From Trypanosoma brucei (taxonomy: Eukaryota), in assembly GCA_000002445.1 (NCBI GenBank), contig CM000208.1, positions 1,248,001-1,312,000 on the forward strand: DNA of 64,000 bases. The letters are read 5' to 3'. Positions within the stretch are counted from its first letter, which is position 1; each line of letters opens with the position of its first letter. This document shows positions 21,409 to 58,539 of this stretch, piece by piece. The notes beneath the pieces were generated by a model, which did no database searches, was not told the DNA's origin, and saw only the letters and a program-made list of their open reading frames with translations. A program made the position numbers and the translations under genes.

Positions 21409-21440
<32 letters not shown>

Positions 21441-29300: not shown

Positions 29301-29636
29301 CATGGCCTTTCCACCAGTCGTCCGGAGGGAATGGTTGCTATCCTAGATTGTATGATTGGTTGCATTGAGAAAAACCGTATAAGCCTCGAAAAATCTATAA
29401 AGAGACGACAGAAAAAACAGGACAAGGCATCGAAACAACTCAGTCTCTATTTGTGCTCCCGTTCATCACCAACTGGGGGCCACTCCGCCCGTGGCTCGCC
29501 TGGAACTGCGTCCGCCAGAGGAAAGGCTCATGCATCAAGAGGGAATTGCAACAAAGCTAATGATGAGATCCAAGAGGGAGTTATCTCACCACCTTCGGGA
29601 CGAGGAGGGAAACGATCTCCATTCAAGCGGCGCTGA
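26340..29636 (+). CDS. Large hypothetical protein (about 1093 aa from ATG 26355). It has an N-terminal ubiquitin-like fold and a Rad23-type XPC-binding / STI1-like helical segment. The remaining ~800 residues have no recognised domain.
   Basis: Track start is TTG; first ATG is at 26355. UBL-like segment VFLKTPAGRKYILEPPITIGQLLD...GGRSIIVVAK. Rad23 XPC-binding-like segment FLQGRRGLRQMLYIARNQ...EEEPDLFRWIEANSEVFLAIINGP. PolyT-AG immediately upstream (26311-26335). Confidence 0.75.
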   Translation: MYEVTMPTADSTSSVFLKTPAGRKYILEPPITIGQLLDVAANQLLLEVSNAKFFLNGSLLYAAGKDDTGANANVLQEEIIIPGGRSIIVVAKPLQCVAKWAAAEAMRKKVDIKNSREPPDQSSPKRSCASPLSPSENASPQSGGADELANGPSLYEFMKQFIFLQGRRGLRQMLYIARNQYGDFPRSLQDHQTMVSIVEYVDRDPTRLRDVLRTILEEEPDLFRWIEANSEVFLAIINGPVHRQEAASPVWLIRNMTEAYHRQNSKCGLPRRFGQPENPQPFHGSESPQQNGEVPALRLVAATRPRNLETTHNAAAKSSCQSDILVDAKYRNAAAENTLGADEEGRQLVDESIEAVQTTCNAWEVAKDRWMVPAEGNTNVQVVNHLMCSRLREAQESLLQSMEGYMVSQPPLSMLQKVCELGQQLWQDGEQWLIKQNDVLGAFQHALACLLFETGRDLLTDFIDANSKSPRGSLRKKIPAREGVEYHPLLDPSVSWITPNGPESLANKLRDYTVREEVTVVVYTKLSPNHANAYVIHTGRVYVEPLIVDDTARYELEDLEVLYSLISSREFLLQDPGMRKVTESNWNDLMVKLYKRFISPIGMLLPQPAHDVSSPLCEVKQVCFIHTWSSRHIPIPFHALLNPVDSKPCVLRWAPFVAERPWHLLVSEGIPWSTPVPQSPVITRLTAPIAFRREPREPDSCLVSKTNMVTYVNVNGTHCSSFGEKELNQPLGVLNNGPVADEGGMWQDVPWKTWLTDALGDVRAGIPTHASMFGRDERHFKNTALLIHEVTRGSGDDANCEANGADGSAEVIRAKTHSVMMDRRVPYNQGSDLFVSHVCGRESGVGIHRCALLPAFKVSEYEPIEVYNAFFRLLVETENATTAQAYRMALLESWSSNFKEEPWRYTSVMLFNYGGPMKTLEHLCGEGSEPLSVVSEETIINNVSEQAEVPRTHTVGKRTKRLSAHRDTTNGRYVEGRAIDVIYDVVLHGLSTSRPEGMVAILDCMIGCIEKNRISLEKSIKRRQKKQDKASKQLSLYLCSRSSPTGGHSARGSPGTASARGKAHASRGNCNKANDEIQEGVISPPSGRGGKRSPFKRR

Positions 29637-35189: not shown

Positions 35190-36137
35190 ATGGGCTCAAT
35201 GGTAATCGGAGGTGACCGCAAGTCAATCTCCTCGGTCGAACCCCTCACGGCCCTTCAATCGAGTAACGCAACACCCAACAAGGTCAATCAGAGGCCAACT
35301 CCCTCACAGAGGGAACAAAAGCAGGAGACGTCAAAGTCACCGCTTGTTATGCGGGCAAATGCAGCTGCTGATGTGCATCAGTGGCCAGATTTTTCGGGAT
35401 TCCGTGAGAGGAACGACATCTTCAACACCAGTAGTTTACCGCGCTCCCCCAATCAGAAGCAAATGGACACTCATGCAGAGAATAACAGTAAAGCAGAACT
35501 TACCTCACCGGCAAGTGAAGGTAGTGGACGTGTGATGGAACGAAGCATGACAGCGGCGGTATCCGCTCGAACATTTAGTGACGACAGAGTGTTAGATGAT
35601 GAATCTGATATTGACATCGTCATTCACATGCCAACACATTACCAGCCGGGCCCACCGGCACAGATCCAGGAGAAGGAGGTCGTGTCATCATCATCCCCTA
35701 GTTGCAACACAGGTGTCGCACTGTCCACCAACGAGGTGCCCTGTAGGGACATTATTAATTCAGCGGAAAACGAGAAAGTTTCCTTTACTGGGGCATGTCA
35801 GCAAAAAGAGATTGCCCATCTAAACGAATTTGTTGCAGTGGTAAAGGAGGCTGTAGTGAAAGCTGTGGTTGAAATTCCCGCATCGCCAAAGCCTCAACGT
35901 CGACCTCGGTTGACCCGGGCACTTCTCAACAGGACCAGGGAAGTTACCTTTAAGCCGTACACCATCGAGGAGTGGCTGGGGGGCGTACAACTACTTGGGG
36001 ACCAACCGGCTGCGGTTAAAATTTGTTCAGTGGAGAATGTTATACTCACGGCCACGATAGCGACAATGAAGGTGGAGGATCAGTTCACCGGAAGCAACGG
36101 ATGCACCGATGCTAGATTGGAGGAGTCCACTAACTGA
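35190..36137 (+). CDS. Hypothetical protein (315 aa). The N-terminal half is Ser/Thr/Pro-rich and disordered; the C-terminal half is structured.
   Basis: ATG start, non-repetitive composition, same strand as neighbours. No motif recognised. Confidence 0.5.
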   Translation: MGSMVIGGDRKSISSVEPLTALQSSNATPNKVNQRPTPSQREQKQETSKSPLVMRANAAADVHQWPDFSGFRERNDIFNTSSLPRSPNQKQMDTHAENNSKAELTSPASEGSGRVMERSMTAAVSARTFSDDRVLDDESDIDIVIHMPTHYQPGPPAQIQEKEVVSSSSPSCNTGVALSTNEVPCRDIINSAENEKVSFTGACQQKEIAHLNEFVAVVKEAVVKAVVEIPASPKPQRRPRLTRALLNRTREVTFKPYTIEEWLGGVQLLGDQPAAVKICSVENVILTATIATMKVEDQFTGSNGCTDARLEESTN

Positions 36138-38920: not shown

Positions 38921-40216
38921 ATGCAACACATTAACCATAGATTCAGTTACTTCATAGATAACTACATTCTACTACTTGCAGAGCGGTTTGGTATTCCACT
39001 CAGCACTGAGGCCCCTTCAGAACGCAGCGGCGGTGACGACGTTGACGATATCGATGGGAGCGGTCTCGCGAAATGGGAGCAAGTTGCCGAATGTGTGCGG
39101 GAGGCGTTGAGTCGCCCGAAGACGGCAGAAGAGCGCCAAGCGCTTCTTCACGTCGACGTGAGTATGCTTGATGCAAAGGTTTGCCGCGGGAGGTTGCAAT
39201 ATCTCATATGGCAAGCTGAAAGGTCGGTGGAGGGTGGGGTTGGGGAGAGGATAAAAGGAAAGGAATCACCATCCTTTTCGGTATTTAATATCACACGTGA
39301 CTCACTACGGGACAAAATTCAGGGCATATATGCCTCGGTTCGGGATCATTTACCGAGCACAATCGCCCCTCGACGCAACCACAACGGGAATTCCACCGGG
39401 CCCGCCGTTCAAAGTGGTTCACAGGGAGATAAGGACGTTATGGATTACGATAGTGACGGTGACGGAAGCGAAGGCAGTCTTCATGTCGTTGATGTCGTTT
39501 TGCCAACGGAGGCGGAGGCTCGGCGTAACCGAGTGGTGGCGGAAGCTCGTGATGATCTTCTGTCGAAGATACAAAAAATGCAACTGGATTTCTTTGAGAA
39601 GCATAGACGATGGGTGGACGTTCCCTTCGATTTCGACACTGTTCCTAACGATGGTAGTGGGCCTGAGGAAACATCCCCTCAATCGGACAGCACTGGACTT
39701 TCGAAATCCGCCGCGCGAGAGGCACTGGAAAATGGAACTCCAACTCGGTTACCACCCAGTAGTGAGATGCCAGAGCCCACAATGCGCAACGAACTTGCAG
39801 GGGAATCTGATGGCCCTAAACTTGATCCGATAATGAGTCTTTTCAACGCCCTGCGGGAGGACCGTCGCGTCGGGCGCCCACCACGCCCTTCTCAAATGAG
39901 GGAAGAGGATTACGAAAAGCAATACGTGCATGCCTCAACAATGCCCTCCGCCCCCGCTGGGTTTCCTAATGCATTGGATGGACAAACTATCCGCCGTTTC
40001 AATGGGAGGCCGAGCACTGAGTCCGTGCGAACGCCGGAACCCGAAAAGCCGGCGAATGAGCCTCTGCCCATCAAGAACACCATCAGTAATGGCGGCGCCG
40101 TGACACATGAGGGGCGCGCACCACAGCTACGGGCAAATAGGTGGAATGTTGTGGAGTACGACGGTGAGGATAGCTCTGAAAGTGAGAGTAGCACCGATGT
40201 AGAATGCGTGACGTAG
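38921..40216 (+). CDS. Hypothetical acidic protein (431 aa). The ordered N-terminal helical region is followed by D/E/S-rich disordered segments.
   Basis: ATG start. PolyY tract 38690-38780 upstream. Acidic clusters (DYDSDGDGSEGS, EYDGEDSSESESS). No motif recognised. Confidence 0.5.
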   Translation: MQHINHRFSYFIDNYILLLAERFGIPLSTEAPSERSGGDDVDDIDGSGLAKWEQVAECVREALSRPKTAEERQALLHVDVSMLDAKVCRGRLQYLIWQAERSVEGGVGERIKGKESPSFSVFNITRDSLRDKIQGIYASVRDHLPSTIAPRRNHNGNSTGPAVQSGSQGDKDVMDYDSDGDGSEGSLHVVDVVLPTEAEARRNRVVAEARDDLLSKIQKMQLDFFEKHRRWVDVPFDFDTVPNDGSGPEETSPQSDSTGLSKSAAREALENGTPTRLPPSSEMPEPTMRNELAGESDGPKLDPIMSLFNALREDRRVGRPPRPSQMREEDYEKQYVHASTMPSAPAGFPNALDGQTIRRFNGRPSTESVRTPEPEKPANEPLPIKNTISNGGAVTHEGRAPQLRANRWNVVEYDGEDSSESESSTDVECVT

Positions 40217-42068: not shown

Positions 42069-43571
42069 ATGAACCCGTCCTATTTGAATCAGATATTGAG
42101 TTACCCCCAACGCGAATCGCTAATTTCGGAGTGCCCCGCGCTTGCACTCCTCTGCTATCAGGAATTAGTGGCTGCCTTCCGCAAAGGGAAACGCATTGCT
42201 GATCCGCTGTCTTTGAGGGATGATGTCACAGTCCTACTTTCCATTGGATCGTTGCATGAACTGACGGACCGGATTTTCTCAGCTGCACCGCATGAATCCG
42301 CTTTGCCTCCTCTCTGGTGTACGCTTCGGAAGGCTCTTGAGTGTGCCTGGGACCCCAGAGGTGATGGTGAGCGACAATGTGAACTAACGATGGTGGGTGG
42401 GAAACTCCGATTTTACAAGAAAAAATGTGATAGGATGCCGCTTGCACAGTCATCAATGCGGAACGCACTTAATATGAGTAGAACACGCATTCGAGAAGTT
42501 ATTGCCTGTGCCCTATCGGGTTCACTGGAGCCCCTTGGAGGGAGACGTAACGAGCCTATCGCTGCATTACTTCAGTTTTCCCGCCTGATCCCACCACCGT
42601 CGGAAGAGCGGGTCGTCACCTCTGAAGGATTGGCATTTTGCATGCAGCCCCTTCAACAACAGTGGTGGACATTAGTATCTGTTGTGTTAGATCGCGCACT
42701 GGCCATAATGTCGGGTAAAGGAGTCTCACGCGCCACTCTTTGGCAGCTTCTAGCTGTTCTGTTTGCACTTAACACAAGTGATTATGTTTACTTGTTTCCT
42801 TCAAAGGATGATGACCTTGAGGCCTTTCAACTGCTGGCGCGCCTCTCGGAGGTCGGGTTGGTTTACCCCCTTATTTGTAACGGAGAGAAATGCTTTGTGC
42901 TTTCTCCCCACTTCCACCACGCCATATGTTGGAGTTCTACACCATCGCTTTGCACAGCGGCATTGCTGGACGACACGAGGGGTCCATCGTCTCGTCTACG
43001 GCGGGAGGATGAAGATACTATCATCACTGAAACAAATTTTCGACTATACGCATACACGAAAAATCCTGACATGCTGCGCATTCTTGATCAATTTGCGGTA
43101 AAGGAAGTGGATGTGGTGGGAATGGTTGTATGCTACAGGGTGACACGAGCATCATTTGCAAGTGCACTAGCGAAAGGCATAGGCGCAAACCATATATTGC
43201 AATTTCTTACGGTGAAGGCACATCCTTCTATGATCAAGCAGAGCAATAGTGAGGCTGGTGACCCGTCGTGCCCGGTTCTCCCCGCTGCTTCTGTGGGATT
43301 CGGTAATACATCTGAATATCGTCAGGGAAATATTATACCACAATCCTTTTGTGATCAACTGTTCACGTGGGAGAGGGAATGCCGAAGACTAATTTTTCGT
43401 CACGATGTGGTGCTGTTGAAAAATATCGGGAAAGAGCAGATGGAAATAATCTTAAACTGTCTTTCAAATAGTGGGGAACAGCACGCCGTGGTGCATCGCG
43501 AGAGCGGTACTTTGGCCATTGAACAGGAGGTTTACACGCGTGTACTGTCCAATTTCATTACTCCGGATTAA
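42069..43571 (+). CDS. Possible TFIIH subunit p52 (Tfb2/GTF2H4-like); otherwise a hypothetical protein.
   Basis: 500 aa. The N-terminus YLNQILSYPQRESLISECPALALLCYQEL resembles the Tfb2 N-terminus ([27 protein letters not shown]). Size matches p52. The functional call is tentative. Confidence 0.45.
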   Translation: MNPSYLNQILSYPQRESLISECPALALLCYQELVAAFRKGKRIADPLSLRDDVTVLLSIGSLHELTDRIFSAAPHESALPPLWCTLRKALECAWDPRGDGERQCELTMVGGKLRFYKKKCDRMPLAQSSMRNALNMSRTRIREVIACALSGSLEPLGGRRNEPIAALLQFSRLIPPPSEERVVTSEGLAFCMQPLQQQWWTLVSVVLDRALAIMSGKGVSRATLWQLLAVLFALNTSDYVYLFPSKDDDLEAFQLLARLSEVGLVYPLICNGEKCFVLSPHFHHAICWSSTPSLCTAALLDDTRGPSSRLRREDEDTIITETNFRLYAYTKNPDMLRILDQFAVKEVDVVGMVVCYRVTRASFASALAKGIGANHILQFLTVKAHPSMIKQSNSEAGDPSCPVLPAASVGFGNTSEYRQGNIIPQSFCDQLFTWERECRRLIFRHDVVLLKNIGKEQMEIILNCLSNSGEQHAVVHRESGTLAIEQEVYTRVLSNFITPD

Positions 43572-44056: not shown

Positions 44057-45400
44057 ATGCGTAGGGGACCACAATGGTTTATCCAGAGCCGGTCACGTGA
44101 ACGGTTTCACCAGTTATGGCCATGGGCACTTGGGGGCGTATGTGCCACTTTGTACTTCTTCAATCGCGAGCCTTTTGAAGAAATGGCTGGTACTGTGGTA
44201 ACTAAGATACGGAAACCCCTACTCAAGACGATGGAATGGATTGAACTGCACGATGTGGACCCGGAGACGATGGCGCTGGAACTTCCTCCTGACGTGCTTT
44301 TTGGCCCCTTGGAGTTCTCAAAGCAGATGCGATTCCTAATGGCTGCGCTACGGGCTGATAATGAACTTGCCGATGGGTATCTTGCTCGTGTGCTGGTGGA
44401 TCATATGGATCTTTCTCTCGATCCACCATTGCTCACGGAAAAGGAAATTCTCGAGACAGGTGGGAGGCAGTTGCTTGACTTTGCCATTGAGGATTTTTTG
44501 GGTGCAGGTTCTAGGAAGACTCGGAAGCATATATTCTTTAGGCCAGACCAATTTCTTCGTCTTATAAACTTTTTAGCCGTTTATCCGTCATTGACAAACT
44601 ACTTTGTGAAGGAACGCAACGGTGTGGACATGATTTTTCGCGCGCTACGGCACAGCAGCGACGAATTCGCACGTGTTCTGGCGCTTCGCAGCCTATGTCT
44701 ATTCTGCTTTACGCAGCGCGAAGACGGCGACGTGGAGCGGCGAATAATGCAGGCGAATGGTGTTGAGCAAATTGTGAAAGCTTATAAGCAAAGTACGGGT
44801 GACCCAACCGACACAAGGTACATCACCTTACTCGTCTCTTCCCTGTTGCGCCACTATCCTCTAGAGGGCGGAAAAGAATTTGTTGAGGCTGATGGCATTC
44901 AGGCAGCTGTTGACAACTTGAATATTGCTCGGTACAAGGGCATACCTCAACATGTGCGAGTTCTTCATGATGCGAAACGACTCCCACCAGCGGCCATTGG
45001 CGGGAGGTCCATCAATTCGCGCATTGAGGATGCTGACTTTATTCCTATAGCGATGGGTCTTCTTGATGCCTTTCCTGAATTCTACGAAGCTTCTAGTGAG
45101 ATATTACTACTACTACGAAGTATTGTACCGTCGTGTGCGAGTCCGTTTAACCTTTTGGAGTATCGTGCTATGCCTATTTTATCAAAATATTATGTGCGAT
45201 GGCAGAATGACACCGTTTTTCACACGGATGGTACGCTCCAGTTGTTGGTGGAACTGTTTAAACTAATGTTAGAGGACCCGACGTGCCAGCGCTGTTTTGA
45301 CCCGAGTGTGGCGTCATATGAGTTGCAGGAGTGTCTGCGGACCGCACGCGCGGCAATTGAAGCGGAATCATCCAAACCTGTGGTGCAACCCACACTTTAG
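44057..45400 (+). CDS. Hypothetical protein (447 aa), mostly alpha-helical and possibly an ARM/HEAT-like solenoid.
   Basis: ATG at 44057. An alternative in-frame ATG at 44183 (MAGTVV...) exists. Several candidate polyY-AG sites lie at 43690-43980. No motif recognised. Confidence 0.6.
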   Translation: MRRGPQWFIQSRSRERFHQLWPWALGGVCATLYFFNREPFEEMAGTVVTKIRKPLLKTMEWIELHDVDPETMALELPPDVLFGPLEFSKQMRFLMAALRADNELADGYLARVLVDHMDLSLDPPLLTEKEILETGGRQLLDFAIEDFLGAGSRKTRKHIFFRPDQFLRLINFLAVYPSLTNYFVKERNGVDMIFRALRHSSDEFARVLALRSLCLFCFTQREDGDVERRIMQANGVEQIVKAYKQSTGDPTDTRYITLLVSSLLRHYPLEGGKEFVEADGIQAAVDNLNIARYKGIPQHVRVLHDAKRLPPAAIGGRSINSRIEDADFIPIAMGLLDAFPEFYEASSEILLLLRSIVPSCASPFNLLEYRAMPILSKYYVRWQNDTVFHTDGTLQLLVELFKLMLEDPTCQRCFDPSVASYELQECLRTARAAIEAESSKPVVQPTL

Positions 45401-45728
45401 TTTGTGCAGAAATTGATTTGTGTTTTGCGTCTTTTTCCGTTTGGATAAGGGAATATGAAAAGTGGAAGAGGGCGCAACGGACGGTGAAATTGTTAGTCAC
45501 CGTGTTAATGTGAGGTGACCATCCTCCCTTTCCTTTTATTTTTTGTATTTTTTTTTTTCGTCATCATCTCTTTTGAGCAACCTGACACGACAGATGTGTG
45601 TGTGTGGGAACACGAACAGGAGCGAAACAAAAGGAATAATAGAGGAATAAAAATATGATGAATTGCATTTATTCCATGATAGTCAACAACAGACAAGATA
45701 ATTCTTAAACGTCTTGATTTCGATATTC

Positions 45729-46085
45729 CTGCATCTTGAAGTTCCCGTGTATTTTCTGAGGGCGAGACATTTATAACGTAAAAGTGGTATTATTTTCAGA
45801 TACATCGCCTCTTTCCCTCTATCTCTCTCTTTCTCTGGCGGACGTTTATTTTTGTTTTATACACACCTCCAGTGGTAATTTGTTTTTCTTGTATTCTCTG
45901 CGTGCTGAAGTTCCACTTTGTTCCGTTCCATGTTATAGAGTAGTGTGAACTCAAATGTGTGAGGGAAATAAGAGCTGTCTGATTATCTTCTGTGTGTGTT
46001 TGTGTGTTTGTGTGTTTGTGTTTGTTCGGGAAGTTCACGTGCAGAAGTGTATGCGTTACATTATTTTGATACCACTGTATTATTT
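45729..46085. repeat. Copy 2 of the dispersed ~340 bp repeat element, located about 330 nt after the stop codon of the 44057 gene.
   Basis: Near-identical to 36226-36563. Differences: an expansion of the (TGTGTTTG) motif, one extra CT unit and two point changes. Confidence 0.8.
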
Positions 46086-46291
46086 AGGTATTACCACCTT
46101 ATGTGTTTTATTGGTTTATCTTTTTTTTTTCATATTTAGTGGCGAAAGGGGGGTTTGCTTCGTGAGTTTGTGCTCTTGTGTTGAGAAAGGGATCAAACAA
46201 TCACCGAATTGGTCGAAGCTAAGTGACCTGAATCGTTTCTAAGTAAGAGAATATTTTTTAATTAACCGATAGATATTCAAAGGAATCGATT

Positions 46292-47104
46292 ATGAGCAGT
46301 TCTGAACACGATAGTCGTGTTGCGTACTGTAAGGAGCATAATGTGCATCATCTCTTTGAGCTCATGGCTTCCAGGTTGCTAGTTGAGCGCCCCGAGAACC
46401 CTTTTGAATACCTTCGGGAGTTGCTGGTCACGGTGGAGAACTCCAAGAAGCAAACAGCACATGATCCCACAATGCTTCCGTCGTCGCCATTGGGGGCGAA
46501 GGACAAGCTGACGAAGATCACAATAGGCACATTTGGTATTGAGAATGCCGGCAAAACAACGATCATTTCTGCTTTGGGAGGAAATATTGAGAAGAATCCT
46601 ATGCCTACCGTCGGATTCACTCCTACAAGATTCCAGACGGATAGGTGCGATCTTTGCATCTTCGACCTTGGCGGAGGCGCCAACTTTCGAGGAATTTGGG
46701 TTCACTATTTCCACGACTGTCATGGTTTCATGTTCGTCATCGACTCTGCAGCGGATGATGCGGTTGTGGAGGAATCCCTCAATGCACTTCGCACTGTAGC
46801 GCAGCACAAGCATGTGCGTGGCAAGCCGGTGCTGGTGCTGGCTAACAAAAAGGACTTAAAGAGTAGCAGAGGCGTTGAGATTGTTTCTGAAGGCCTCTTG
46901 GAGGAACTCTTTGGGGATGTTTCTCTCTACCATCTAGTGCCTTCATGTGGCATTGAGGAGGATCCTGAACTGGAGAAGGGCGTTGATTGGCTATTGACGA
47001 AGATACAGAAGGAATATACTCACATTGATAAGTTGGTGGAAAGTCAGACGCTGGAGGTAAAAATGGAGGCGGAACAAAAGAGGAAGAAGTTGCTTGAAGA
47101 ATAG
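46292..47104 (+). CDS. ARF-like small GTPase (ARL) with an N-terminal RIIa/DPY-30-like dimerisation-docking helix and a C-terminal coiled-coil tail.
   Basis: G1 GIENAGKTT; switch I PTVGFT; G3 FDLGGGANFRGIW (non-canonical, against the DVGGQ consensus); G4 NKKD; G5 SCG. The N-terminal VAYCKEHNVHHLFELMASRLLVERPENPFEYLRELL matches the RIIa/DPY-30 pattern. Confidence 0.85.
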   Translation: MSSSEHDSRVAYCKEHNVHHLFELMASRLLVERPENPFEYLRELLVTVENSKKQTAHDPTMLPSSPLGAKDKLTKITIGTFGIENAGKTTIISALGGNIEKNPMPTVGFTPTRFQTDRCDLCIFDLGGGANFRGIWVHYFHDCHGFMFVIDSAADDAVVEESLNALRTVAQHKHVRGKPVLVLANKKDLKSSRGVEIVSEGLLEELFGDVSLYHLVPSCGIEEDPELEKGVDWLLTKIQKEYTHIDKLVESQTLEVKMEAEQKRKKLLEE

Positions 47105-48356: not shown

Positions 48357-51300
48357 ATGACTTTAATTCCTCAAAACCCCTACCGAATGAGTTTCAGCAG
48401 ATGTAATAATGAGCGAAAAGCTTCAATTCCCTTGCAACCGACCAACACGAATGGGGGGATCAGTGCTGATAACACTGGTGTAGATCTTAAAGCTCATCGT
48501 GTGACTCCATTCACCACCACATTTGGACGGAGACACACCCTATATGGGGAGACAGAGATACGCGAGGCAAAGGAAACTTTAGCAAAGTTATTTGTGCCAG
48601 TGGCAAAGTTGGGAATGTACCGGCTGCGAAGAAGTAGACTGCACAAAAAGAATTCAGAGCTTCGGAGCTACACTATCGACTCCATTGTTCAGGCATACCG
48701 GAGTTCCAACTCAATAATCTCCACTTGGCCTATGGACGTGCTAACCTTGCTTGCTGAGGGAGCACAGTATCACTACTTAGAAGATGGCGAGGTGATTGTA
48801 TATGCGAGGGAATGGTACTTGTCGACTGGAATTATTGTTGTTCTCTTCGGTGAGGTGCAGGAGACGCTACCAAAATCTGAGAAAAACTTCACACCGAATA
48901 AGACGTCTGGTAACATACGGCACCCTGAGCGTTCCGTTTTATGCGAACAAACCGTTCTCTGTAGGGATTTTGCACCTTCGCGTCTAAAGGCGCACGGTTA
49001 TGCCGATGTAGCAGTAATACCCGCTCGCTGGGTTTGGGATGCCATCAATTACACCTCAATGGAGCCATTTGCTGAGGGGATGCTAGACTCTTTGAGAATG
49101 ACTGTTGCACCATTATGTGAAAGCGTTTTGGAACGAACGTACTTTCCCACCGCGTTGACGCTTCGTCGCAGTTGGCTTTGGTCTTTCTTCAGTGCAGGGG
49201 AGCGAATTCGTCTCGCACGCCTCATGGAGGTGAAGGTGTTTTGCGCTGGCGACACCCTGTTTGGTGAAGGGGACCGTAATCCGTACGTGTACATCATTCG
49301 CCGCGGTGCCGTTCGGGTTGTGGTGTGCAAGGAGCCCATTTTGGACTTTGGCCCCGGCGCAGCCTTCGGCGAGGTGAGTGTCATTTTTGATGAACCACGC
49401 TGCTGCCATGCGATTGCCACGTGTTTATGTGAAGTTTACTGTTTGCACCGTCGTCACATTATGAAGCGACTCAGGAAGAAGGCGCACGTGTGTGATAGCG
49501 TGATTGGAACAGCCCTGAGAAGGCGTGAGCAGTGGTTGGAGGACGCCAAGACAAGGCACGTGATGAGCCTTACTGTTTTGTTAGGAGGCGTCCCCTGTCT
49601 CAGTCAGGCGACAGAAAAGGTCCGAGCGGCCATAGCGGAGAAGGCCAAAACAGTGGTGCTGCCCCCGCGACAAGTGTTATTCAAAAAGGGAACCTTGTGC
49701 GATCATCTTTTCATTGTGGGGCGGGGAACCCTCTTAATGGAAGGTGCTGAAGATACTGTAGCGACTCGTACGTCAACGGGGTTTGTGGGTGAGTTGTTTC
49801 TCCATCCGCATTTGTGGCCCACAGACGTTACCTCCCTCACATCTGTTGATGGCTGGATGTTCCACGTTGATGTAGTGAAGGATGCGCTTGATAGCATAAA
49901 CGCAAGGGAACAGGCAGTTGACATATGCCGTCAGGGGATTGAACTTTATCGCGCTCAGTACGGGCCGGAAAGTGTTATGGAGCCAACCCCTGCACCCCGA
50001 AAGTTGGGTCCCGCGCGTAAAGGCACAACTGCCTTTTCTTCGGGGGCGAAGCAGTCAAATTCACTCCGTCAGAAGGGGCAACCCAGAAGTCCGTCACTTC
50101 CCAGCACGCCAAGGCTTGTAGCGGTAGCGAAGACTACTCCTGTGAAGGAGGAGCCACTGGAGAAGTTTGATTGGAACGCGTATGCAATCGAGGATAAGGT
50201 AGCGCTGCCCTCAGCGGACACGGATGAAAGTGATAAGCGCAGTGAACGGCAGCAGACCGAGCATGTCATTGAGGCTGAACTCGGTGGGCAGGCGGGGAGT
50301 TTGTTGTCCGCTGGTGTAGGGCTAGGAATTAGTGCTATTGACTGCGACTTTTCTGATGAGGTGGATGAGATGCGGCAAATGTTACTTGAGCAGGCCCTTC
50401 TAATACCTTCAAACAGACTACTGTTCTTCCTCAGGCAAATAAATCGCAGCAAGGTTACATTGGTGGTGGACGACGGTGCCGTTGTGACGGGAGAGTGTTC
50501 GTTAGAGACAACCGTGGGTGACGATCTGACGTTCCCCCAGTACGTCTTACCGCCCTCTGTTGTGTACACTTTAGACAATGTGAACACTTATAATGTGGAT
50601 GGCGCGCCATTTAACGGGGAGGACGTGCTAAACGACACCAACCGACAGTTAGCAGACGGAGTCGGTACGACTGCGCACCGACGAGCACGCACTCCCGAAG
50701 TTGCTCTTGTGACACCAGATTTTATGTCAACGTTTCGCTCCACCGATGAAATGGCAAATACAACCTTAAAGGGGCAACAGTTTGGCGGCCTTTCATTGTT
50801 CCTGCGGTCCGGTCGTCCATGTTCGGGGCTCAGTGGTAAGCACCATCTACAGCATTCATCGTCCCTTTATGGGACGCTGCGGCGTAGGAGTCTTAGCGGG
50901 GTGAGCAGAAATTATACTCCTTATCCCCAAACTCCTTTTACGCCTGATGTACACGGTTCGACACAGTACAGTTTCTCTAACATATACACAAGACTCAATA
51001 GCGTGGATTACACACAACAAGCGAAAATCACAGCTTCTGCACTCCAGTCTGCTCTTGATCGTTTTGTGAAACTGGACGACCAAAATTACTTTCAACAAGT
51101 GGTGCGTGTCTGCTTACCAACAGAGGCAGAGCAGCAGTTGATTACGGAAGAGGTTGGTAGTGGTGGTAAGAGTAGCTGTGACTTGATACTACTGCTGATG
51201 CACGTTAGGAAGTGTGAGGGCCTCCAGCTAAGTGACGATATGCAGTACCCTATTGTGAAGGTTTATACCAAGACGCGCGTCCTCATCAGAACGCCAATTA

Positions 51301-53465
51301 TGGAGGATCGTGTGGAACCGGACTGGCCGATTGAGGTGGCCTCTTTTATAACATTTATTCGCCGTGATGCTGACGTCAGCTTTTGCATCTGTGATGCGGG
51401 CCAGGAAGATAAGGTTGAATATACTGCCAACCTGGCCGCAGCTGACTTAGGAGAGAATAGGGGTGTTGGCCTTCGGAAGTTGGTCATGCATCGTGGGGCT
51501 ACGGAATCTAATGATGAAATCAATGAGACCAAAGCCACTATTGAGGTGTGCATGATGGCCGTTACTACTTCCAAGCACCACGCACTGCAGAAGCATCTTG
51601 ATGAGGAGGAGGACGCTTGCAAATCATCTGATGACTTTAGTGCAATCTACCTGCAGGTACTGGGGGTGAAAGGCTTAAAGCATCGTATAGAGGCTGCCGT
51701 CCATATTAGTGTGGAGATGGATGGGAAGACAAAAGAGGTTCTGCGCACCCATAAGATCGCACCCAAAACACGCTCTCCCGCGTGGCCGGGGCAAACCAGT
51801 TTTTGTGTTGCTCAGGGGGACGGTGTAATCAGTTTTGATCTTTTCCATCGCGACACGTTTGTGGCGTCGTACGATACTTCCGTCGACACTCTCGCATTTG
51901 GCGGTACCGGTGTGCAGTGTTTACCTCTCCTTCGCGCTCAGGGGACCGGCGGGGACCCCTATGGCGACTTGTATGTTTCCATTCTTGGAACCAAAACACC
52001 ATGTGGGGAGGAGGACGTCGTGGAGCGACCGTCGAAGTTGCTTGTCGTGCATGTGGAGGCGCTTTCTCTACGCCAAAATCTGGATTTAGAGTTTGTACCT
52101 GATCCATTTGTCATTATCCGGGGCCCCAAAGGGGAGGTAATTATGCGCACCGCAATGAACTTTGGTACGTATGAGGCGAAATGGTCGGAGGAACGTGCTT
52201 CTTGCTTCATCCTTTGCCCCTCGCTCCCCGGTTGCGTCGTAACGTATCACTTGGAGGTGTATGACAACAATGAGTCGAGCAAGATTGGTGAAGCAACAAT
52301 GACGGTTACCGTGAACGGCACAAAACGCAATCGTATGATGCTTGACATTGGGGGAAAGGGACTACTCACAGTGGTGGCTCATTCGTTTCCAATACAAGAT
52401 GTTATCAGCCACAGCCAACCGCCTGGATCAGGTCTTACCAATCACCTCACCGACACCTCCAGCTCTAGTATAGAAGAAGGTTACTTCTTGCAGGTTCATA
52501 TTTGTAGTTGTGAGAGCCTTCAGGGGACTGGGTTTGATGATTTCCAGATTGACCCTGTCGTAACTGCACGGGTTGGACGGAAGCGTATTGTAGTTGCACC
52601 ACTCGTGTCGGGCTGTACGGCACCCCAGTGGAAGTATCCGAAAGCCACTTTTGTCCTTCCGTTTGTCCCTGACGTTCTCAGCCATATCGTTTTGGAGGTT
52701 TGGGACACCAACATCGAGCTATGCGATGTTCTCGGCGTCGCCCGCCTTCCAATGGAAGAGATATGCCGAACTGGAACACACAAATACACTCTGCAGCCAC
52801 ATAAGGATCAAGAGTATGGTCGGCGCAGGGATTTAGGTACCATTGTGGTAAACACTCGGTTCGGTCGCGTAAATGGAGCTGTCGTTTCTAAGGAGTCGCC
52901 CTTGTTCTTTTCAGCGGGCTCTTCAGGCTCAGGTATCTTTCGGTCCCGTTTATTTCCTTCTACGAATAGGGGGCCAAACCTCCCCATCACTCGAGTCCGT
53001 TTGCACATATCCAGCTGCTGCTCTGCCGTATCCGCATGGCCTTTCGACTTTATAAAGGTGACATTAACATGCCTTCATCATGTTTTGCTTGAGGTGCGTA
53101 AATCCTGCAAAGATGAATTCTTCGTCGCATGGTCCGTTGATGATGCGCAAACTATCGTGGACCTTAGGGCCATATACGGACGATCCCTGCGACTCGCTGT
53201 TTCTGGTGGAAAGGAAGAGACTGGACGATTAACAACCCACATTGGCGCCGCGCATTTGCCCTTTTCAACGCTGGCATCAGCGTCCCCGGAGGTTGTCTCT
53301 GTGCGGAGTTTACCACTAGTAGACCAGGCAACTGAGGAACGGAGTAGCGGGAGTAGAAGTGGTCGGCGATGTGTAACTCCGAGTGTTTCAGCGCAGGAAC
53401 CTAGTATAACCGTGTCCCTTCTTGCGCTTGATTCTGACCACTCTGTGAGCTTGGGAAGTGAGTAG
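48357..53465 (+). CDS. Giant (1702 aa) protein with cyclic-nucleotide-binding domains and multiple C2-like domains.
   Basis: Two clear cNMP-binding domains with an FGE signature at about nt 49170-49470 (...GPGAAFGEVSVIF...) and a GEL signature at about 49560-49860 (...STGFVGELFL...). A degenerate N-terminal one is at about 48510-48870 (VLFGEV). There are three or more C2-like beta-sandwich segments (about 51640-51960, 52020-52230, 52480-52800). Confidence 0.85.
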   Translation: MTLIPQNPYRMSFSRCNNERKASIPLQPTNTNGGISADNTGVDLKAHRVTPFTTTFGRRHTLYGETEIREAKETLAKLFVPVAKLGMYRLRRSRLHKKNSELRSYTIDSIVQAYRSSNSIISTWPMDVLTLLAEGAQYHYLEDGEVIVYAREWYLSTGIIVVLFGEVQETLPKSEKNFTPNKTSGNIRHPERSVLCEQTVLCRDFAPSRLKAHGYADVAVIPARWVWDAINYTSMEPFAEGMLDSLRMTVAPLCESVLERTYFPTALTLRRSWLWSFFSAGERIRLARLMEVKVFCAGDTLFGEGDRNPYVYIIRRGAVRVVVCKEPILDFGPGAAFGEVSVIFDEPRCCHAIATCLCEVYCLHRRHIMKRLRKKAHVCDSVIGTALRRREQWLEDAKTRHVMSLTVLLGGVPCLSQATEKVRAAIAEKAKTVVLPPRQVLFKKGTLCDHLFIVGRGTLLMEGAEDTVATRTSTGFVGELFLHPHLWPTDVTSLTSVDGWMFHVDVVKDALDSINAREQAVDICRQGIELYRAQYGPESVMEPTPAPRKLGPARKGTTAFSSGAKQSNSLRQKGQPRSPSLPSTPRLVAVAKTTPVKEEPLEKFDWNAYAIEDKVALPSADTDESDKRSERQQTEHVIEAELGGQAGSLLSAGVGLGISAIDCDFSDEVDEMRQMLLEQALLIPSNRLLFFLRQINRSKVTLVVDDGAVVTGECSLETTVGDDLTFPQYVLPPSVVYTLDNVNTYNVDGAPFNGEDVLNDTNRQLADGVGTTAHRRARTPEVALVTPDFMSTFRSTDEMANTTLKGQQFGGLSLFLRSGRPCSGLSGKHHLQHSSSLYGTLRRRSLSGVSRNYTPYPQTPFTPDVHGSTQYSFSNIYTRLNSVDYTQQAKITASALQSALDRFVKLDDQNYFQQVVRVCLPTEAEQQLITEEVGSGGKSSCDLILLLMHVRKCEGLQLSDDMQYPIVKVYTKTRVLIRTPIMEDRVEPDWPIEVASFITFIRRDADVSFCICDAGQEDKVEYTANLAAADLGENRGVGLRKLVMHRGATESNDEINETKATIEVCMMAVTTSKHHALQKHLDEEEDACKSSDDFSAIYLQVLGVKGLKHRIEAAVHISVEMDGKTKEVLRTHKIAPKTRSPAWPGQTSFCVAQGDGVISFDLFHRDTFVASYDTSVDTLAFGGTGVQCLPLLRAQGTGGDPYGDLYVSILGTKTPCGEEDVVERPSKLLVVHVEALSLRQNLDLEFVPDPFVIIRGPKGEVIMRTAMNFGTYEAKWSEERASCFILCPSLPGCVVTYHLEVYDNNESSKIGEATMTVTVNGTKRNRMMLDIGGKGLLTVVAHSFPIQDVISHSQPPGSGLTNHLTDTSSSSIEEGYFLQVHICSCESLQGTGFDDFQIDPVVTARVGRKRIVVAPLVSGCTAPQWKYPKATFVLPFVPDVLSHIVLEVWDTNIELCDVLGVARLPMEEICRTGTHKYTLQPHKDQEYGRRRDLGTIVVNTRFGRVNGAVVSKESPLFFSAGSSGSGIFRSRLFPSTNRGPNLPITRVRLHISSCCSAVSAWPFDFIKVTLTCLHHVLLEVRKSCKDEFFVAWSVDDAQTIVDLRAIYGRSLRLAVSGGKEETGRLTTHIGAAHLPFSTLASASPEVVSVRSLPLVDQATEERSSGSRSGRRCVTPSVSAQEPSITVSLLALDSDHSVSLGSE

Positions 53466-56571: not shown

Positions 56572-58539
56572 ATGTCTGGCACTAATCACCTCCGTCAGGT
56601 GGTTCCCGCAGCCGTTTACAACCCAATACCTCCTGCACCACCGTTCATGGTGTTTTGCGACCCGTACGCGAAGGTCGCCAACGCTACTGCAAAGTACAGG
56701 AATCAACCGCCAGTCGCACCGAACGCTGCCGCTGTTTTTCAGCAGCAACTCTACAGTTTACCTTTTCATGGTGTTGCTGGGGTTCCCGCCCCTATGCGTG
56801 AAGAAGAGGACGCTGATGGGTCTTTTGAGGTTCACGACAGCTGCCTCAAGGCACCTATTACTGTAGGGCGTCGAGTTGTAATCCCCACTACCGGAAGCCG
56901 TGGCCTTTTCAACTGTGCGCAGCTTCCAAGTAATGGAAACAGTGGTGGTAACTGCAATAACAACTCCAATAGTAACGGGAATGGTGGGAAAAGTTTCGCG
57001 CGAATTTGTGACGCCCATCCCGAGGGAAGGTGTATTTCAGGTGAACAGTGCCCTGACATTCATGTGCAGGCCGAGTACCTAACTGCTCAGCGACAGGAGA
57101 TGATATTCTGGCTTGAAAGTAAGGAACGTGAGTTCCAGAACACACTGCGTGCGGATCCGACCAAGATGTTCCGTGTGTTCTGTGCGGACCTTAAAGAGGC
57201 CGTGGAAGTCCCGATTAGCGCGTTGCAATTCACTAAAGGTCTATACGTGGATCCGTCGGTTCGGGCTCGCCGGGCGCGTGCGGGTCATCAGAACCAGTTC
57301 GCGATGTTAGCCTCGCAGTTACCAACTGCCTGCGGATTGTTTCTTAGCAACCCTTCGCAGTGCAGGTGGGCCCGTTGGTGTAACCAAATTCATGTCGACT
57401 TCACGTGGATGCAGACGAAGAAGAAAGAGTTTGAGTCGTGGTTCAACGAACTGGAGGGACGCTTCAATGCACTTCCCGATGACTACGAGTTTCATGTGCA
57501 CGACCCACAGCTTAAAATGGGTTTAAGAATTCCGAAAGCAAGCATTGCTGTCTTTTCTCGTGGTCTCTTTCAGGGATCGCCGAAGAAGGCGCCGAGTGTC
57601 TGCATGCTCTTTCAACGGGACCGGTGCACAGCAAATGTGTGCTGCAATCAAATTCATGTGATACCGCGGTACTTAGCTTTGCATCGACTTTTGATACAAA
57701 AAGGGGACAGCATTACTGAAGAGGAGCGCGGGAACATTATGAATCAAATGAAGGAGATACTGGAGTCGCAGAAGCGGAGCATGCAGGTTGCGGACGATGG
57801 TGACGCCAACTTTCTCGCAAGGGAGCTAAATCCTCAGGCCGTACCGTACGTCCCACCGCAGCCAACAAGTGTGTGGCGCACGGGGGGCTCTGCGGGTAGC
57901 AGCAGTCCACCACGGACAGCAGCGGCTCCCATTCCTGTTCCCGAGCCCCTTCCAACATTCCGCCAACCACCGCAGTGGAACGAACACTCACCTTCAGCTG
58001 CTGTGGATGGCTCTCCGTACGCTTCCCCTCACCGACGCGTTGAAAGGTGTGGTAGCAGCGGCACGCGGGACTTGCACACCTGTTCCAATCCACTGGAAGA
58101 TTTGATTGAGTTCGTGGATGGGGACAAGTCGCGTACGTCTCTTCTCGCAAGTCAGAGTACAACGAGTCAGGCTAGTCGCAGTTGCAAGCACACCAATAAC
58201 CCTTATGCGTTTGGTGCGAGCTATAAATGTACCGCATCACCCACTTTTGGATGGGTCCAACCTGTTTACAGTGCAGCAAATAGCGGCTCGACACATCCAG
58301 CGAACCGCTCGTGGGGAAGTGGCAGCGTTACAGGCGGGTGTCAACCCATTCGAGTGCGTGTAGGAGGTGGTGGAATTATGGAACATGAACCGTTGGAGCC
58401 CTTTTCTTTGGATCAACACGATATGGGTGCCAGTCCCTTTGAATGTCGCTCACCAGCGCACCGGACGTTGGGATCAAGAACTATAGAAGACCGCCTCAGT
58501 TCTTCGCCAACGTGGAGTGCCACGCAGAAACAGAGATGA
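56572..58539 (+). CDS. CCCH-type zinc-finger RNA-binding protein with three fingers; a paralog of the gene at 17388.
   Basis: Fingers at nt 57007-57063 (CDAHPEGRCISGEQCPDIH), 57331-57393 (CGLFLSNPSQCRWARWCNQIH) and 57601-57657 (CMLFQRDRCTANVCCNQIH). The inter-finger linker FRVFCADLKEAVEVPISALQFTKGLYVDP is similar to the linker FTVRCFHPSMTEYFNIPSELVYYTKGSMEY of the 17388 protein. The C-terminus is Ser/Pro-rich. Confidence 0.8.
   Translation: MSGTNHLRQVVPAAVYNPIPPAPPFMVFCDPYAKVANATAKYRNQPPVAPNAAAVFQQQLYSLPFHGVAGVPAPMREEEDADGSFEVHDSCLKAPITVGRRVVIPTTGSRGLFNCAQLPSNGNSGGNCNNNSNSNGNGGKSFARICDAHPEGRCISGEQCPDIHVQAEYLTAQRQEMIFWLESKEREFQNTLRADPTKMFRVFCADLKEAVEVPISALQFTKGLYVDPSVRARRARAGHQNQFAMLASQLPTACGLFLSNPSQCRWARWCNQIHVDFTWMQTKKKEFESWFNELEGRFNALPDDYEFHVHDPQLKMGLRIPKASIAVFSRGLFQGSPKKAPSVCMLFQRDRCTANVCCNQIHVIPRYLALHRLLIQKGDSITEEERGNIMNQMKEILESQKRSMQVADDGDANFLARELNPQAVPYVPPQPTSVWRTGGSAGSSSPPRTAAAPIPVPEPLPTFRQPPQWNEHSPSAAVDGSPYASPHRRVERCGSSGTRDLHTCSNPLEDLIEFVDGDKSRTSLLASQSTTSQASRSCKHTNNPYAFGASYKCTASPTFGWVQPVYSAANSGSTHPANRSWGSGSVTGGCQPIRVRVGGGGIMEHEPLEPFSLDQHDMGASPFECRSPAHRTLGSRTIEDRLSSSPTWSATQKQR

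What the first reader, a model, noticed from the sequence alone, without database searches (positions are those of the whole stretch)
46292..47104. ARF-like GTPase fused to an RIIa/DPY-30-like docking helix, with an atypical G3 box
The ARL core (GKT, PTVGFT, NKKD) is preceded by a 35-aa amphipathic segment matching the RIIa/DPY-30 dimerisation-docking pattern. It is followed by a coiled-coil tail. The G3 box is DLGGG rather than DVGGQ. The loss of the catalytic Gln implies low intrinsic and GAP-stimulated hydrolysis. This combination of an RIIa-type dimeriser on an ARL is unusual and suggests a flagellar or AKAP-like anchoring role.
Basis: partly seen in the sequence, partly recalled or inferred. 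Interest (0 to 1): 0.5.

Follow-up and report, generated by a model that had tools for sequence, protein, structure and literature searches.

The report
Trypanosome ARL13 with axoneme-docking domain

Summary
Window 46292..47104 (+) is a 270-aa ORF with GKT, PTVGFT, DLGGG and NKKD motifs, an N-terminal helical module and a C-terminal helix. The protein is 100% identical to T. brucei Q38B80 on chromosome 10, with the same neighbours. It matches the published TbArl13 (Tb927.10.5230; Zhang et al. 2018, J Cell Sci) in species, chromosome, length and domain layout.

That paper showed that the N-terminal D/D domain (aa 1-62) self-associates, and is necessary and sufficient for axoneme docking. It also showed that the G domain plus coiled coil is a GEF for TbArl3A and TbArl3C.

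My independent tests agree:
- The best solved relative is Chlamydomonas ARL13B, with an identical FDLGGG.
- The missing catalytic Gln is an ARL13 family trait: the position is G, A or S in 30 of 30 sequences. It is not an oddity of this protein.
- The N-terminal module is conserved in every kinetoplastid ortholog.
- Its profile hits the PKA RIα D/D domain (E 1e-4), and its model superposes on that domain at 0.5 Å.
- Pfam's RIIa and Dpy-30 models stay below threshold.

The one small addition is that the fusion also occurs in diplonemids and euglenids, so it is probably ancestral to Euglenozoa. Verdict: already known, low interest.

The parts
46292..47104 (+). Complete CDS of TbArl13 (270 aa plus stop)
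   Evidence: ORF list. 100% identical to Q38B80_TRYB2 / EAN77940.1 / CBH15551.1 / SCU65441.1. Same neighbours on T. brucei chromosome-scale records.
46298..46447 (+). N-terminal dimerisation/docking (D/D) domain, aa ~3-52, three helices (RIα-type, RIIa clan)
   Evidence: AF2 helices 3-15, 18-32 and 37-52. Ortholog profile hits PKA RIα D/D 2ezw at E 9.7e-5. Foldseek top hits are 5hvz_B and 3im4_B, both RIα D/D, at rmsd 0.5-0.8 Å. Conserved in all 28 kinetoplastid rows. Published as D/D aa 1-62.
46448..46507 (+). Flexible linker, aa ~53-72; includes the conserved DPT motif at aa 58-60
   Evidence: pLDDT below 50 at residues 54-59 and 68-70. Length is highly variable among orthologs, but D58, P59 and T60 are nearly invariant.
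46508..47011 (+). Arf-family G domain, aa ~73-240
   Evidence: Pfam Arf PF00025 at aa 75-237, E 3.5e-28. Best PDB sequence hit is CrArl13B (4m9q, 5di3_B) at E ~3e-33. Same entries are the best Foldseek hits.
46535..46558 (+). G1 / P-loop GIENAGKT, aa 82-89
   Evidence: Direct reading. G82, A86, G87 and K88 are invariant.
46664..46678 (+). G3 / switch II DLGGG, aa 125-129; Gly replaces the catalytic Gln
   Evidence: Direct reading. The position is G, A or S and never Q in 30 of 30 sequences. Identical FDLGGG in CrArl13B.
46844..46855 (+). G4 NKKD, aa 185-188
   Evidence: Direct reading. N185, K186 and D188 are invariant.
47015..47098 (+). C-terminal helix / coiled-coil motif, aa 242-269
   Evidence: AF2 helix 242-269. 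Aligns to the helix after the G domain of CrArl13B. That G domain plus C-terminal helix mediates the GEF activity of CrArl13B.

Best explanation
The ORF is TbArl13 (Tb927.10.5230), the single ARL13B ortholog of Trypanosoma brucei. It has three working parts.

1. **N-terminal D/D domain.** An RIα-type dimerisation/docking domain (aa ~3-52) lets the protein self-associate. It also retains the protein on a limited number of axonemal docking sites, enriched at the proximal flagellum. This is the published 'diffusion-retention' model. The domain replaces the palmitoyl membrane anchor of animal ARL13B.
2. **G domain.** The Arf-type G domain has Gly in place of the switch-II catalytic Gln. It is therefore expected to hydrolyse GTP very slowly and to sit mostly in the GTP form.
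3. **C-terminal helix.** Together with the G domain, this helix acts as the guanine-nucleotide exchange factor for TbArl3A and TbArl3C.

Concentrating the GEF in the flagellum generates Arl3-GTP locally. Arl3-GTP then releases lipidated cargo from UNC119 and unloads ODA16 from IFT trains.

**Basis of each step**
- Shown by published experiments: docking and self-association through the D/D domain, GEF activity, essentiality, and the ODA16 link.
- Shown here by computation: identity, ARL13 orthology, the D/D fold and its conservation, and Gln loss across the family.
- Inferred: slow hydrolysis in the trypanosome protein specifically, the X-type four-helix-bundle dimer, and an AKAP-like amphipathic-helix partner.
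For: **Identity**
- 100% match to T. brucei Q38B80.
- Located on chromosome-scale T. brucei records with the same flanking genes: Tfb2 (500 aa), a 447-aa ORF, and a 1702-aa cNMP/C2 protein.
- The length (270 aa) and domain boundaries match the paper's constructs: D/D at 1-62 and catalytic domain at 61-270.

**ARL13 orthology**
- CrArl13B is the top sequence hit: 118 bits, against 85 bits for the next true ARL, ARL6. An engineered miniGq chain scores 99.6 bits in between.
- CrArl13B is also the top fold hit.
- The paper reports reciprocal BLAST and a phylogeny.
- G3 lacks Gln in 30 of 30 sequences.
- The C-terminal helix is predicted and aligns to CrArl13B.

**D/D domain**
- The profile hits RIα D/D at E 9.7e-5. 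Weaker hits go to EFCAB10, found in an axoneme-associated entry, and to the radial-spoke protein FAP385.
- The modelled module has pLDDT 85.
- It superposes on RIα D/D at 0.5 Å over 40 columns, and nearly all other neighbours are D/D domains.
- It is conserved in all kinetoplastid orthologs examined.

**Published function**
- D/D-dependent axoneme docking, self-association and competition by free D/D.
- GEF activity on TbArl3A and TbArl3C.
- The diffusion-retention model, and rescue by a membrane-targeted catalytic domain.
- ODA16 accumulates on IFT after TbARL13 RNAi.
- Proximal localisation in Leishmania depends on the outer-dynein docking complex.
- ARL13B has very low intrinsic hydrolysis and no catalytic Gln.
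Against: - Pfam's curated RIIa and Dpy-30 models do not reach their gathering thresholds on this sequence.
- Foldseek E-values for the 61-aa module are weak, 0.18 at best, because the domain is so small.
- GTP hydrolysis has not been measured for the trypanosome protein in the papers I read.
- The axonemal docking partner is not identified.
- Dimerisation is not obligatory for function, because a Tb24-targeted catalytic domain rescues.
- The link from the gene ID Tb927.10.5230 to this sequence is inferred. It rests on species, chromosome, length, domain layout and the paper's statement that there is a sole Arl13b homolog. I found no printed sequence in the paper to compare.
Confidence: 0.95

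Rival explanations
1. The N-terminal segment is only a generic amphipathic helical extension, comparable to the membrane-binding N-terminal helix of Arf/Arl proteins. On this view it is not a true D/D domain, and its resemblance to RIIa/DPY-30 is due to chance.
For: Pfam RIIa and Dpy-30 are below threshold on the T. brucei sequence. Foldseek E-values for the isolated module are at or above 0.18.
Against: - The ortholog profile hits RIα D/D at E 9.7e-5 across 43 residues, including the conserved RPE/RPD turn.
- The fold-neighbour list is almost entirely D/D domains, and the best superposes at rmsd 0.5 Å.
- In a scan of 1.84 billion proteins, many of the other significant hits whose sequences I read have recognisable D/D-type architectures: EFCAB10-like, adenylate-kinase and PKA-R-like.
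- There is no myristoylation Gly2 (the sequence starts MSS) and no Cys in the first dozen residues. The nearest Cys, C13, lies inside the first helix.
- Experiments show self-association and detergent-resistant axoneme binding, not membrane binding.
Confidence: 0.03
2. The module is a DPY-30-type rather than a PKA-R-type D/D. It would then dock to a specific radial-spoke or central-pair scaffold such as RSP3, as DPY-30-domain spoke proteins do.
For: - The only Pfam hit for the T. brucei segment is a sub-threshold Dpy-30 hit.
- DPY-30, radial-spoke and central-pair D/D chains appear among the fold neighbours.
- FAP385 from radial spoke 1 appears in both the sequence-profile and the fold lists.
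Against: - RIα and RIβ D/D rank first by both profile and fold. They share the extra N-terminal helix.
- DPY-30 matches are worse: rmsd 2.3 Å, probability 0.25.
- Published localisation in Leishmania depends on the outer-dynein docking complex rather than on spokes.
- The partner is unidentified, so spoke docking is not excluded.
Confidence: 0.1
3. The ORF is a chance open frame or a misannotated fragment, not a functional gene.
For: None beyond the general caveat that an ORF list is purely mechanical.
Against: - Full-length orthologs at 40-71% identity across Kinetoplastea, with invariant G-motifs.
- A confident fold prediction, pLDDT 85.
- Published antibody, tagging, RNAi and biochemical data on the protein.
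Confidence: 0

Closest known systems
TbArl13 (Tb927.10.5230), Zhang et al. 2018, J Cell Sci 131:jcs219071 (PMC6140319)
   Same: It appears to be the same protein. Species, chromosome 10, length (270 aa) and layout all agree: N-terminal D/D at 1-62, a G domain without the switch-II Gln, and a coiled-coil tail. There is no palmitoylation site and no long C-terminal tail.
   Different: No difference detected. The window DNA is 98.8-99.8% identical to four public T. brucei-group records over 43292-50104, so the strain may differ. The protein is identical.
Chlamydomonas reinhardtii ARL13B (PDB 4m9q, 5di3) and animal ARL13B
   Same: - Arf-type G domain with an identical FDLGGG switch II.
- A long helix after the G domain.
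- GEF activity for Arl3.
- Ciliary function.
   Different: - These proteins have no D/D domain.
- Animal ARL13B is anchored to the ciliary membrane by N-terminal palmitoylation. It also carries a long Pro-rich C-terminal tail.
- TbArl13 is held on the axoneme instead.
PKA regulatory subunit RIα dimerisation/docking domain (PDB 2ezw, 3im4, 5hvz)
   Same: - The same helical D/D fold, including the N-terminal helix typical of RI.
- 13 of 43 residues are identical, including the Y-x-x-K/E-H-N and RPE-x-P turn motifs.
- The model superposes at rmsd 0.5-0.8 Å.
   Different: - It is attached to a small GTPase, not to cAMP-binding domains.
- RIα has Cys at Q-L-C-T-A-R-P where TbArl13 has R-L-L-V-E-R-P. 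From memory, the RIα Cys residues form inter-chain disulfides.
- The binding partner is unknown, and it docks to the axoneme rather than to a canonical AKAP.
Axonemal RIIa/DPY-30-domain proteins (FAP385 in radial spoke 1, EFCAB10, SPA17, DPY-30)
   Same: They have the same fold class, and the spoke and axoneme members use it to attach to axonemal scaffolds.
   Different: They are weaker matches than RIα. None of them carries a GTPase domain.

Membership tests
ARL13 / ARL13B subfamily of Arf-like GTPases | Arf-family G domain with intact G1 (GxxxxGKT) and G4 (NKxD) motifs | tested here: met
   Pfam PF00025 at E 3.5e-28, 98.7 bits against a cutoff of 22.3. GIENAGKT at 82-89 and NKKD at 185-188.
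ARL13 / ARL13B subfamily of Arf-like GTPases | Closer to ARL13B than to any other Arf/Arl | tested here: met
   CrArl13B scores 118 bits, against 85 bits for ARL6, the next true ARL. An engineered miniGq chain scores 99.6 bits in between. Foldseek ranks 1-4 are CrArl13B. I did not repeat the phylogeny, but it is reported in PMC6140319.
ARL13 / ARL13B subfamily of Arf-like GTPases | Switch-II catalytic Gln absent (DxGG followed by G, A or S) | tested here: met
   DLGGG at 125-129. None of the 30 aligned sequences has Gln at this position. The same motif is present in CrArl13B.
ARL13 / ARL13B subfamily of Arf-like GTPases | Helix or coiled coil immediately after the G domain, required for GEF activity | tested here: met
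   Predicted helix 242-269 at pLDDT 87-96. It aligns to the CrArl13B helix. The GEF requirement was shown for CrArl13B.
ARL13 / ARL13B subfamily of Arf-like GTPases | GEF activity towards Arl3 | not testable with these tools
   Reported experimentally: His-TbArl13 accelerates mant-GDP release from TbArl3A and TbArl3C (PMC6140319).
ARL13 / ARL13B subfamily of Arf-like GTPases | N-terminal palmitoylation Cys motif and long Pro-rich C-terminal tail (features of animal ARL13B, not universal) | tested here: not met
   The protein starts MSSSEHDS and ends at aa 270, directly after the helix. The paper notes the same, and says CrArl13b also lacks the palmitoylation site. These are lineage-specific targeting elements, so failing them does not exclude orthology.
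RIIa-clan dimerisation/docking (D/D) domain (PKA-R RIIa / DPY-30) | Match to Pfam RIIa (PF02197) or Dpy-30 (PF05186) at the gathering threshold | tested here: not met
   T. brucei segment: Dpy-30 at 13.4 bits against a cutoff of 22, and RIIa not reported. Among 20 orthologs, 5 hit RIIa (best E 0.0039) and 7 hit Dpy-30 (best E 0.033). Those E-values point to scores below the cutoffs; per-member bit scores were not reported. The paper cites CDD cl02594, SSF47391 and IPR003117 predictions.
RIIa-clan dimerisation/docking (D/D) domain (PKA-R RIIa / DPY-30) | Profile-level sequence similarity to a solved D/D domain | tested here: met
   The profile of 20 orthologs hits RIα D/D 2ezw at E 9.7e-5 over profile positions 8-50. 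Full-length RIα chains score E ~1e-3.
RIIa-clan dimerisation/docking (D/D) domain (PKA-R RIIa / DPY-30) | Helix-turn-helix protomer fold superposable on D/D domains | tested here: met
   AF2 model at pLDDT 85. 5hvz_B gives rmsd 0.5 Å, TM(target) 0.83 and probability 0.99. RIβ, FAP385, SPA17 and DPY-30 follow. E-values are weak because the domain is short. This is a predicted structure, not a solved one.
RIIa-clan dimerisation/docking (D/D) domain (PKA-R RIIa / DPY-30) | Homodimerisation into an X-type four-helix bundle | not testable with these tools
   No multimer prediction was available. Co-IP shows D/D-dependent self-association (PMC6140319).
RIIa-clan dimerisation/docking (D/D) domain (PKA-R RIIa / DPY-30) | Docking to an amphipathic helix of an anchoring (AKAP-like) protein | not tested
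   The partner is unidentified. Free D/D competes TbArl13 off a limited number of axonemal sites. Localisation in Leishmania depends on the ODA docking complex.

The most novel reading that the evidence does not exclude
The D/D-ARL13 fusion is not a kinetoplastid invention, as published. It is probably ancestral to all Euglenozoa.

The same N-terminal D/D module, a Gln-less G3 box and the C-terminal helix are present in ARL13 orthologs from:
- diplonemids (Diplonema papillatum, Namystynia karyoxenos);
- euglenids (Euglena mutabilis and Petalomonas cantuscygni, from a different euglenid class);
- a prokinetoplastid (Apiculatamorpha spiralis).

In the prokinetoplastid transcript, and in a similar metagenomic ORF of unknown origin, the unit is concatenated into tandem [G-CC-D/D]n 'poly-ARL13' ORFs.

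On this reading, axoneme-docked rather than membrane-anchored ARL13 is a phylum-wide trait. The unknown docking partner should then be conserved across Euglenozoa.
Probability: 0.8. Interest if true: 0.2.

Novelty: already known. Interest (0 to 1): 0.1.

Why it matters
For this window it matters little, because the gene and its unusual architecture have been characterised experimentally. More generally, TbArl13 shows that the conserved ARL13-to-ARL3 ciliary cascade can be localised by docking to the axoneme through a PKA-type D/D domain instead of by lipid anchoring. The authors proposed the D/D docking interface as a parasite-specific drug target. The small extension found here is that the fusion is also present in diplonemids and euglenids. 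This narrows the search for the still-unknown axonemal docking partner to proteins conserved across Euglenozoa.

Tried and rejected
It gave no hit on the full protein at E ≤ 1. It gave only sub-threshold hits on the isolated segment and its orthologs. It would have wrongly looked like a refutation, so I replaced it with a profile-versus-PDB search and a fold search.
- **Search of the 2018 paper's supplement** for the printed sequence or accession, to tie Tb927.10.5230 to this ORF directly. Nothing was found in the one supplementary file held as text. The identification therefore rests on species, chromosome, length, domain boundaries and the statement of a sole homolog.
- **Whole-protein fold search.** It returned only Arf/Arl G domains and said nothing about the N-terminus. 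The module had to be modelled separately.
- **Rejected: the Gly in G3 as a T. brucei peculiarity.** It is family-wide.
- **Rejected: the N-terminus as an Arf-like membrane helix.** The profile, the fold and the published fractionation all contradict this.
- **Not pursued:**
  - a wider homolog search to test whether non-euglenozoan Discoba (Heterolobosea, jakobids) carry the fusion;
  - the correspondence between where the TbArl13 tail ends and the CrArl13B truncations that abolish GEF activity, because I could not verify the residue-numbering offset of the PDB chains.

Full report
**1. What is in the sequence**

Window 46292..47104 on the + strand is an ATG-initiated ORF of 270 codons. It lies in a stretch where all but one of the ORFs of 200 aa or more are on the + strand. 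The intergenic DNA is GT-rich and has a long pyrimidine tract just upstream. From general knowledge, this layout is typical of a trypanosomatid polycistronic unit.

Pfam places an Arf-family domain at aa 75-237 (E 3.5e-28).

**2. Identity**

The translated protein is an exact match to one database sequence. That sequence is held under EAN77940.1 / UniProt Q38B80 (T. brucei brucei TREU927), CBH15551.1 (T. b. gambiense DAL972), SCU65441.1 (T. equiperdum) and RHW68587.1.

It is encoded on megabase-scale T. brucei-group records, including FN554973.1. The flanking genes there are the same as in the window: a 500-aa Tfb2 homolog, a 447-aa ORF, and a 1702-aa protein with cNMP-binding and C2 domains. 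Window DNA from 43292 to 50104 is 98.8-99.8% identical to those records.

**3. It is already described**

Zhang et al. 2018 (J Cell Sci 131:jcs219071, PMC6140319) characterise TbArl13 (Tb927.10.5230), which they call the sole Arl13b homolog of T. brucei. Their description includes:
- a coiled-coil motif directly after it;
- no palmitoylation site and no long C-terminal tail;
- as 'the most unusual feature', an N-terminal extension predicted to be a PKA-type dimerisation/docking (D/D) domain.

Their constructs are D/D = aa 1-62 and catalytic domain = aa 61-270. This fits the 270-aa ORF here exactly.

I could not find the sequence printed in the held supplement. The identification therefore rests on species, chromosome 10, length, architecture and uniqueness. 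I consider it secure.

**4. Independent test of ARL13 orthology**

- The best solved-structure relatives by sequence are Chlamydomonas ARL13B (4m9q, 5di3_B) at E about 3e-33 and 118 bits. The next true ARL, ARL6, scores 85 bits. An engineered miniGq chain sits between them at 99.6 bits.
- The alignment runs through the tail helix and shows an identical FDLGGG.
- An AlphaFold2 model built on 30 orthologs has mean pLDDT 85.4. CrArl13B chains are its four best Foldseek matches in the PDB.
- In an alignment of 28 kinetoplastid orthologs plus two metazoan ARL13B, the residue after DxGG is A (15), G (12) or S (3). It is never Q.

So the 'atypical G3 box' is real, but it is the signature of the ARL13 family. 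Gotthardt et al. 2015 (eLife, PMC4868535) state that ARL13B has very low intrinsic GTP hydrolysis and no catalytic glutamine. They also state that GEF activity resides in the G domain plus a C-terminal helix.

**5. Independent test of the D/D claim**

- There is no hit on the whole protein at E ≤ 1.
- On the isolated segment, Dpy-30 scores 13.4 bits against a cutoff of 22.
- Among 20 orthologs, RIIa (5 of 20) and Dpy-30 (7 of 20) give only weak hits, with best E-values of 0.0039 and 0.033.

Stronger tests support the claim:
- The N-terminal ~60 residues are highly conserved in every kinetoplastid ortholog examined, with 68% mean column identity. Y, HH, FEL, A, RP, E and DP positions are invariant. 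They are absent from the metazoan rows.
- A profile of the segment hits the PKA RIα D/D domain (2ezw) at E 9.7e-5 over 43 residues. Full-length RIα scores about 1e-3. Weaker hits include EFCAB10 and the radial-spoke protein FAP385.
- T. brucei and RIα share 13 of 43 residues over that stretch.
- Modelled alone (pLDDT 85.1, helices 2-14, 17-31 and 36-54), the module's best PDB neighbours are RIα D/D domains. 5hvz_B gives rmsd 0.5 Å over 40 columns, TM(target) 0.83 and 32% identity.
- The next neighbours are RIβ, FAP385, SPA17 D/D and DPY-30. Foldseek E-values are weak (≥ 0.18), as expected for a ~45-residue fold, but the neighbour list is almost purely D/D domains.

The module is therefore a three-helix RI-type D/D domain rather than a single 35-aa amphipathic helix. 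A low-confidence linker of variable length (aa ~53-72) joins it to the G domain. That linker contains a conserved DPT motif.

**6. Mechanism**

*Shown experimentally in the literature:*
- The D/D domain alone is sufficient for detergent-resistant flagellar and axonemal association. The catalytic domain without it is soluble.
- Endogenous TbArl13 co-precipitates with constructs that contain the D/D domain.
- Excess free D/D displaces TbArl13 from the axoneme and is dominant-negative. This supports a diffusion-retention model with limited docking sites.
- TbArl13 binds TbArl3A and TbArl3C and accelerates their nucleotide exchange.
[quoted passage not shown] Flagellar enrichment, not axoneme binding or dimerisation as such, is therefore what matters.
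- Downstream, TbARL13 RNAi makes ODA16 accumulate with IFT88 in the flagellum. Active ARL3A and ARL3C displace ODA16 from IFT (PMC11373600).
- In Leishmania, ARL13B deletion shortens flagella. Its proximal localisation depends on the outer-dynein docking complex (PMC11971395).

*Inferred:*
- The trypanosome protein itself hydrolyses GTP very slowly.
- The D/D domain forms an X-type four-helix bundle.
- It binds an amphipathic helix of an as yet unidentified axonemal anchor.

**7. A small extension found on the way**

I searched the N-terminal profile against 1.84 billion representative proteins. It gave only 55 hits at E ≤ 1e-3.

Of the 13 hits I examined most closely, 11 carry an Arf domain or a recognisable G domain:
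- Eight of the ten scanned with Pfam have an Arf domain.
- P0118, P0127 and P0141 show G-domain motifs by direct reading and alignment.

Those that can be named are all Euglenozoa, but not only kinetoplastids:
- Diplonema papillatum KAJ9465363.1, annotated ARL13B;
- Namystynia karyoxenos (Diplonemea);
- Euglena mutabilis and Petalomonas cantuscygni (Euglenida);
- Apiculatamorpha spiralis (Prokinetoplastina).

The diplonemid and euglenid proteins read DLGGG at G3, and the prokinetoplastid reads DLGGR. All have a C-terminal helix region. The Euglena and Petalomonas proteins score 1e-40 to 1e-43 against CrArl13B, against about 1e-29 to 1e-30 for the next ARL.

The 2018 paper states that the D/D domain is conserved within kinetoplastids and absent in other eukaryotes. 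The fusion therefore probably dates to the euglenozoan ancestor. I found no paper in the held library that discusses this, though that does not prove it is unpublished.

Two sequences are single ORFs containing tandem [G domain - coiled coil - D/D] units that are 63.5% identical to each other. They are the Apiculatamorpha transcript P0102 and P0104 from a 1.58-kb metagenomic contig. This suggests 'poly-ARL13' proteins, although a transcript or assembly artefact is not excluded.

Many of the remaining hits whose sequences I read have other D/D-type architectures: EFCAB10-like, adenylate-kinase, PKA-R-like and rhodanese-like. Some are unrelated repeat proteins.

**8. Verdict**

The thing itself is a published, experimentally characterised protein. 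Novelty: already known. Interest: low (0.1).

The only corrections are:
- the Gln-less G3 box is an ARL13 hallmark;
- the docking module is an RI-type three-helix D/D domain;
- Pfam alone would not have verified it.

Noticed in passing
Related proteins P0127, P0109, P0113, P0141 and P0102 (not in the window): The D/D-ARL13 fusion occurs in diplonemids (Diplonema papillatum, Namystynia karyoxenos), euglenids (Euglena mutabilis, Petalomonas cantuscygni) and a prokinetoplastid (Apiculatamorpha spiralis). The 2018 paper describes it as kinetoplastid-specific. It is likely ancestral to Euglenozoa.
   Followed up: partly
Related proteins P0102 (365 aa, Apiculatamorpha transcript) and P0104 (512 aa, 1580-bp JGI contig): These are single ORFs made of tandem [ARL13 G domain - coiled coil - D/D] units, 63.5% identical between units. 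They look like a possible 'poly-ARL13' protein. An assembly or read-through artefact is not excluded.
   Followed up: partly
window 48357..53465 (+): The gene immediately downstream is a 1702-aa ORF with two cyclic-nucleotide-binding stretches (PF00027, E 5e-21) and a C2 domain (PF00168, E 1e-14). It is also conserved next to ARL13 in T. b. gambiense and T. equiperdum records. Its function was not examined.
   Followed up: no
window 44057..45400 (+), 38921..40216 (+), 35190..36137 (+), 56572..58539 (+): Four substantial ORFs (447, 431, 315 and 655 aa) have no Pfam match at E ≤ 1e-3. They may be lineage-specific trypanosomatid proteins.
   Followed up: no
window 42069..43571, 30512..33454, 26340..29636 (+): Other neighbours are a TFIIH Tfb2 homolog (500 aa), a 980-aa TPR-repeat protein with a C-terminal DnaJ domain, and a 1098-aa protein with an XPC-binding domain.
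   Followed up: no
window ~20001..26000 and ~60001..64000: These are markedly AT-rich stretches (GC 0.27-0.34, against about 0.45-0.51 over most of the window). They contain no ORF of 200 aa or more. Their nature (long intergenic, repeat or other) was not examined.
   Followed up: no
window 45955..46140: There are GT-rich simple repeats (tgtgtgtgtttgtgtgtttgtgtg...) and a long pyrimidine tract (ttatcttttttttttcatattt) 150-330 nt upstream of the ARL13 start codon. From general knowledge, this is consistent with a trypanosomatid intergenic region carrying a trans-splicing polypyrimidine signal. It was read directly from the sequence and not tested.
   Followed up: no
window 47087..47101 (C-terminal end of the ORF): T. 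brucei has the shortest C-terminal tail among the aligned orthologs. It ends ...KKLLEE, whereas most other trypanosomes have a few more residues. In CrArl13B, truncating the post-G-domain helix progressively reduces and then abolishes GEF activity. I could not map the residue numbering reliably, so whether the T. brucei tail is near the functional minimum remains open.
   Followed up: no
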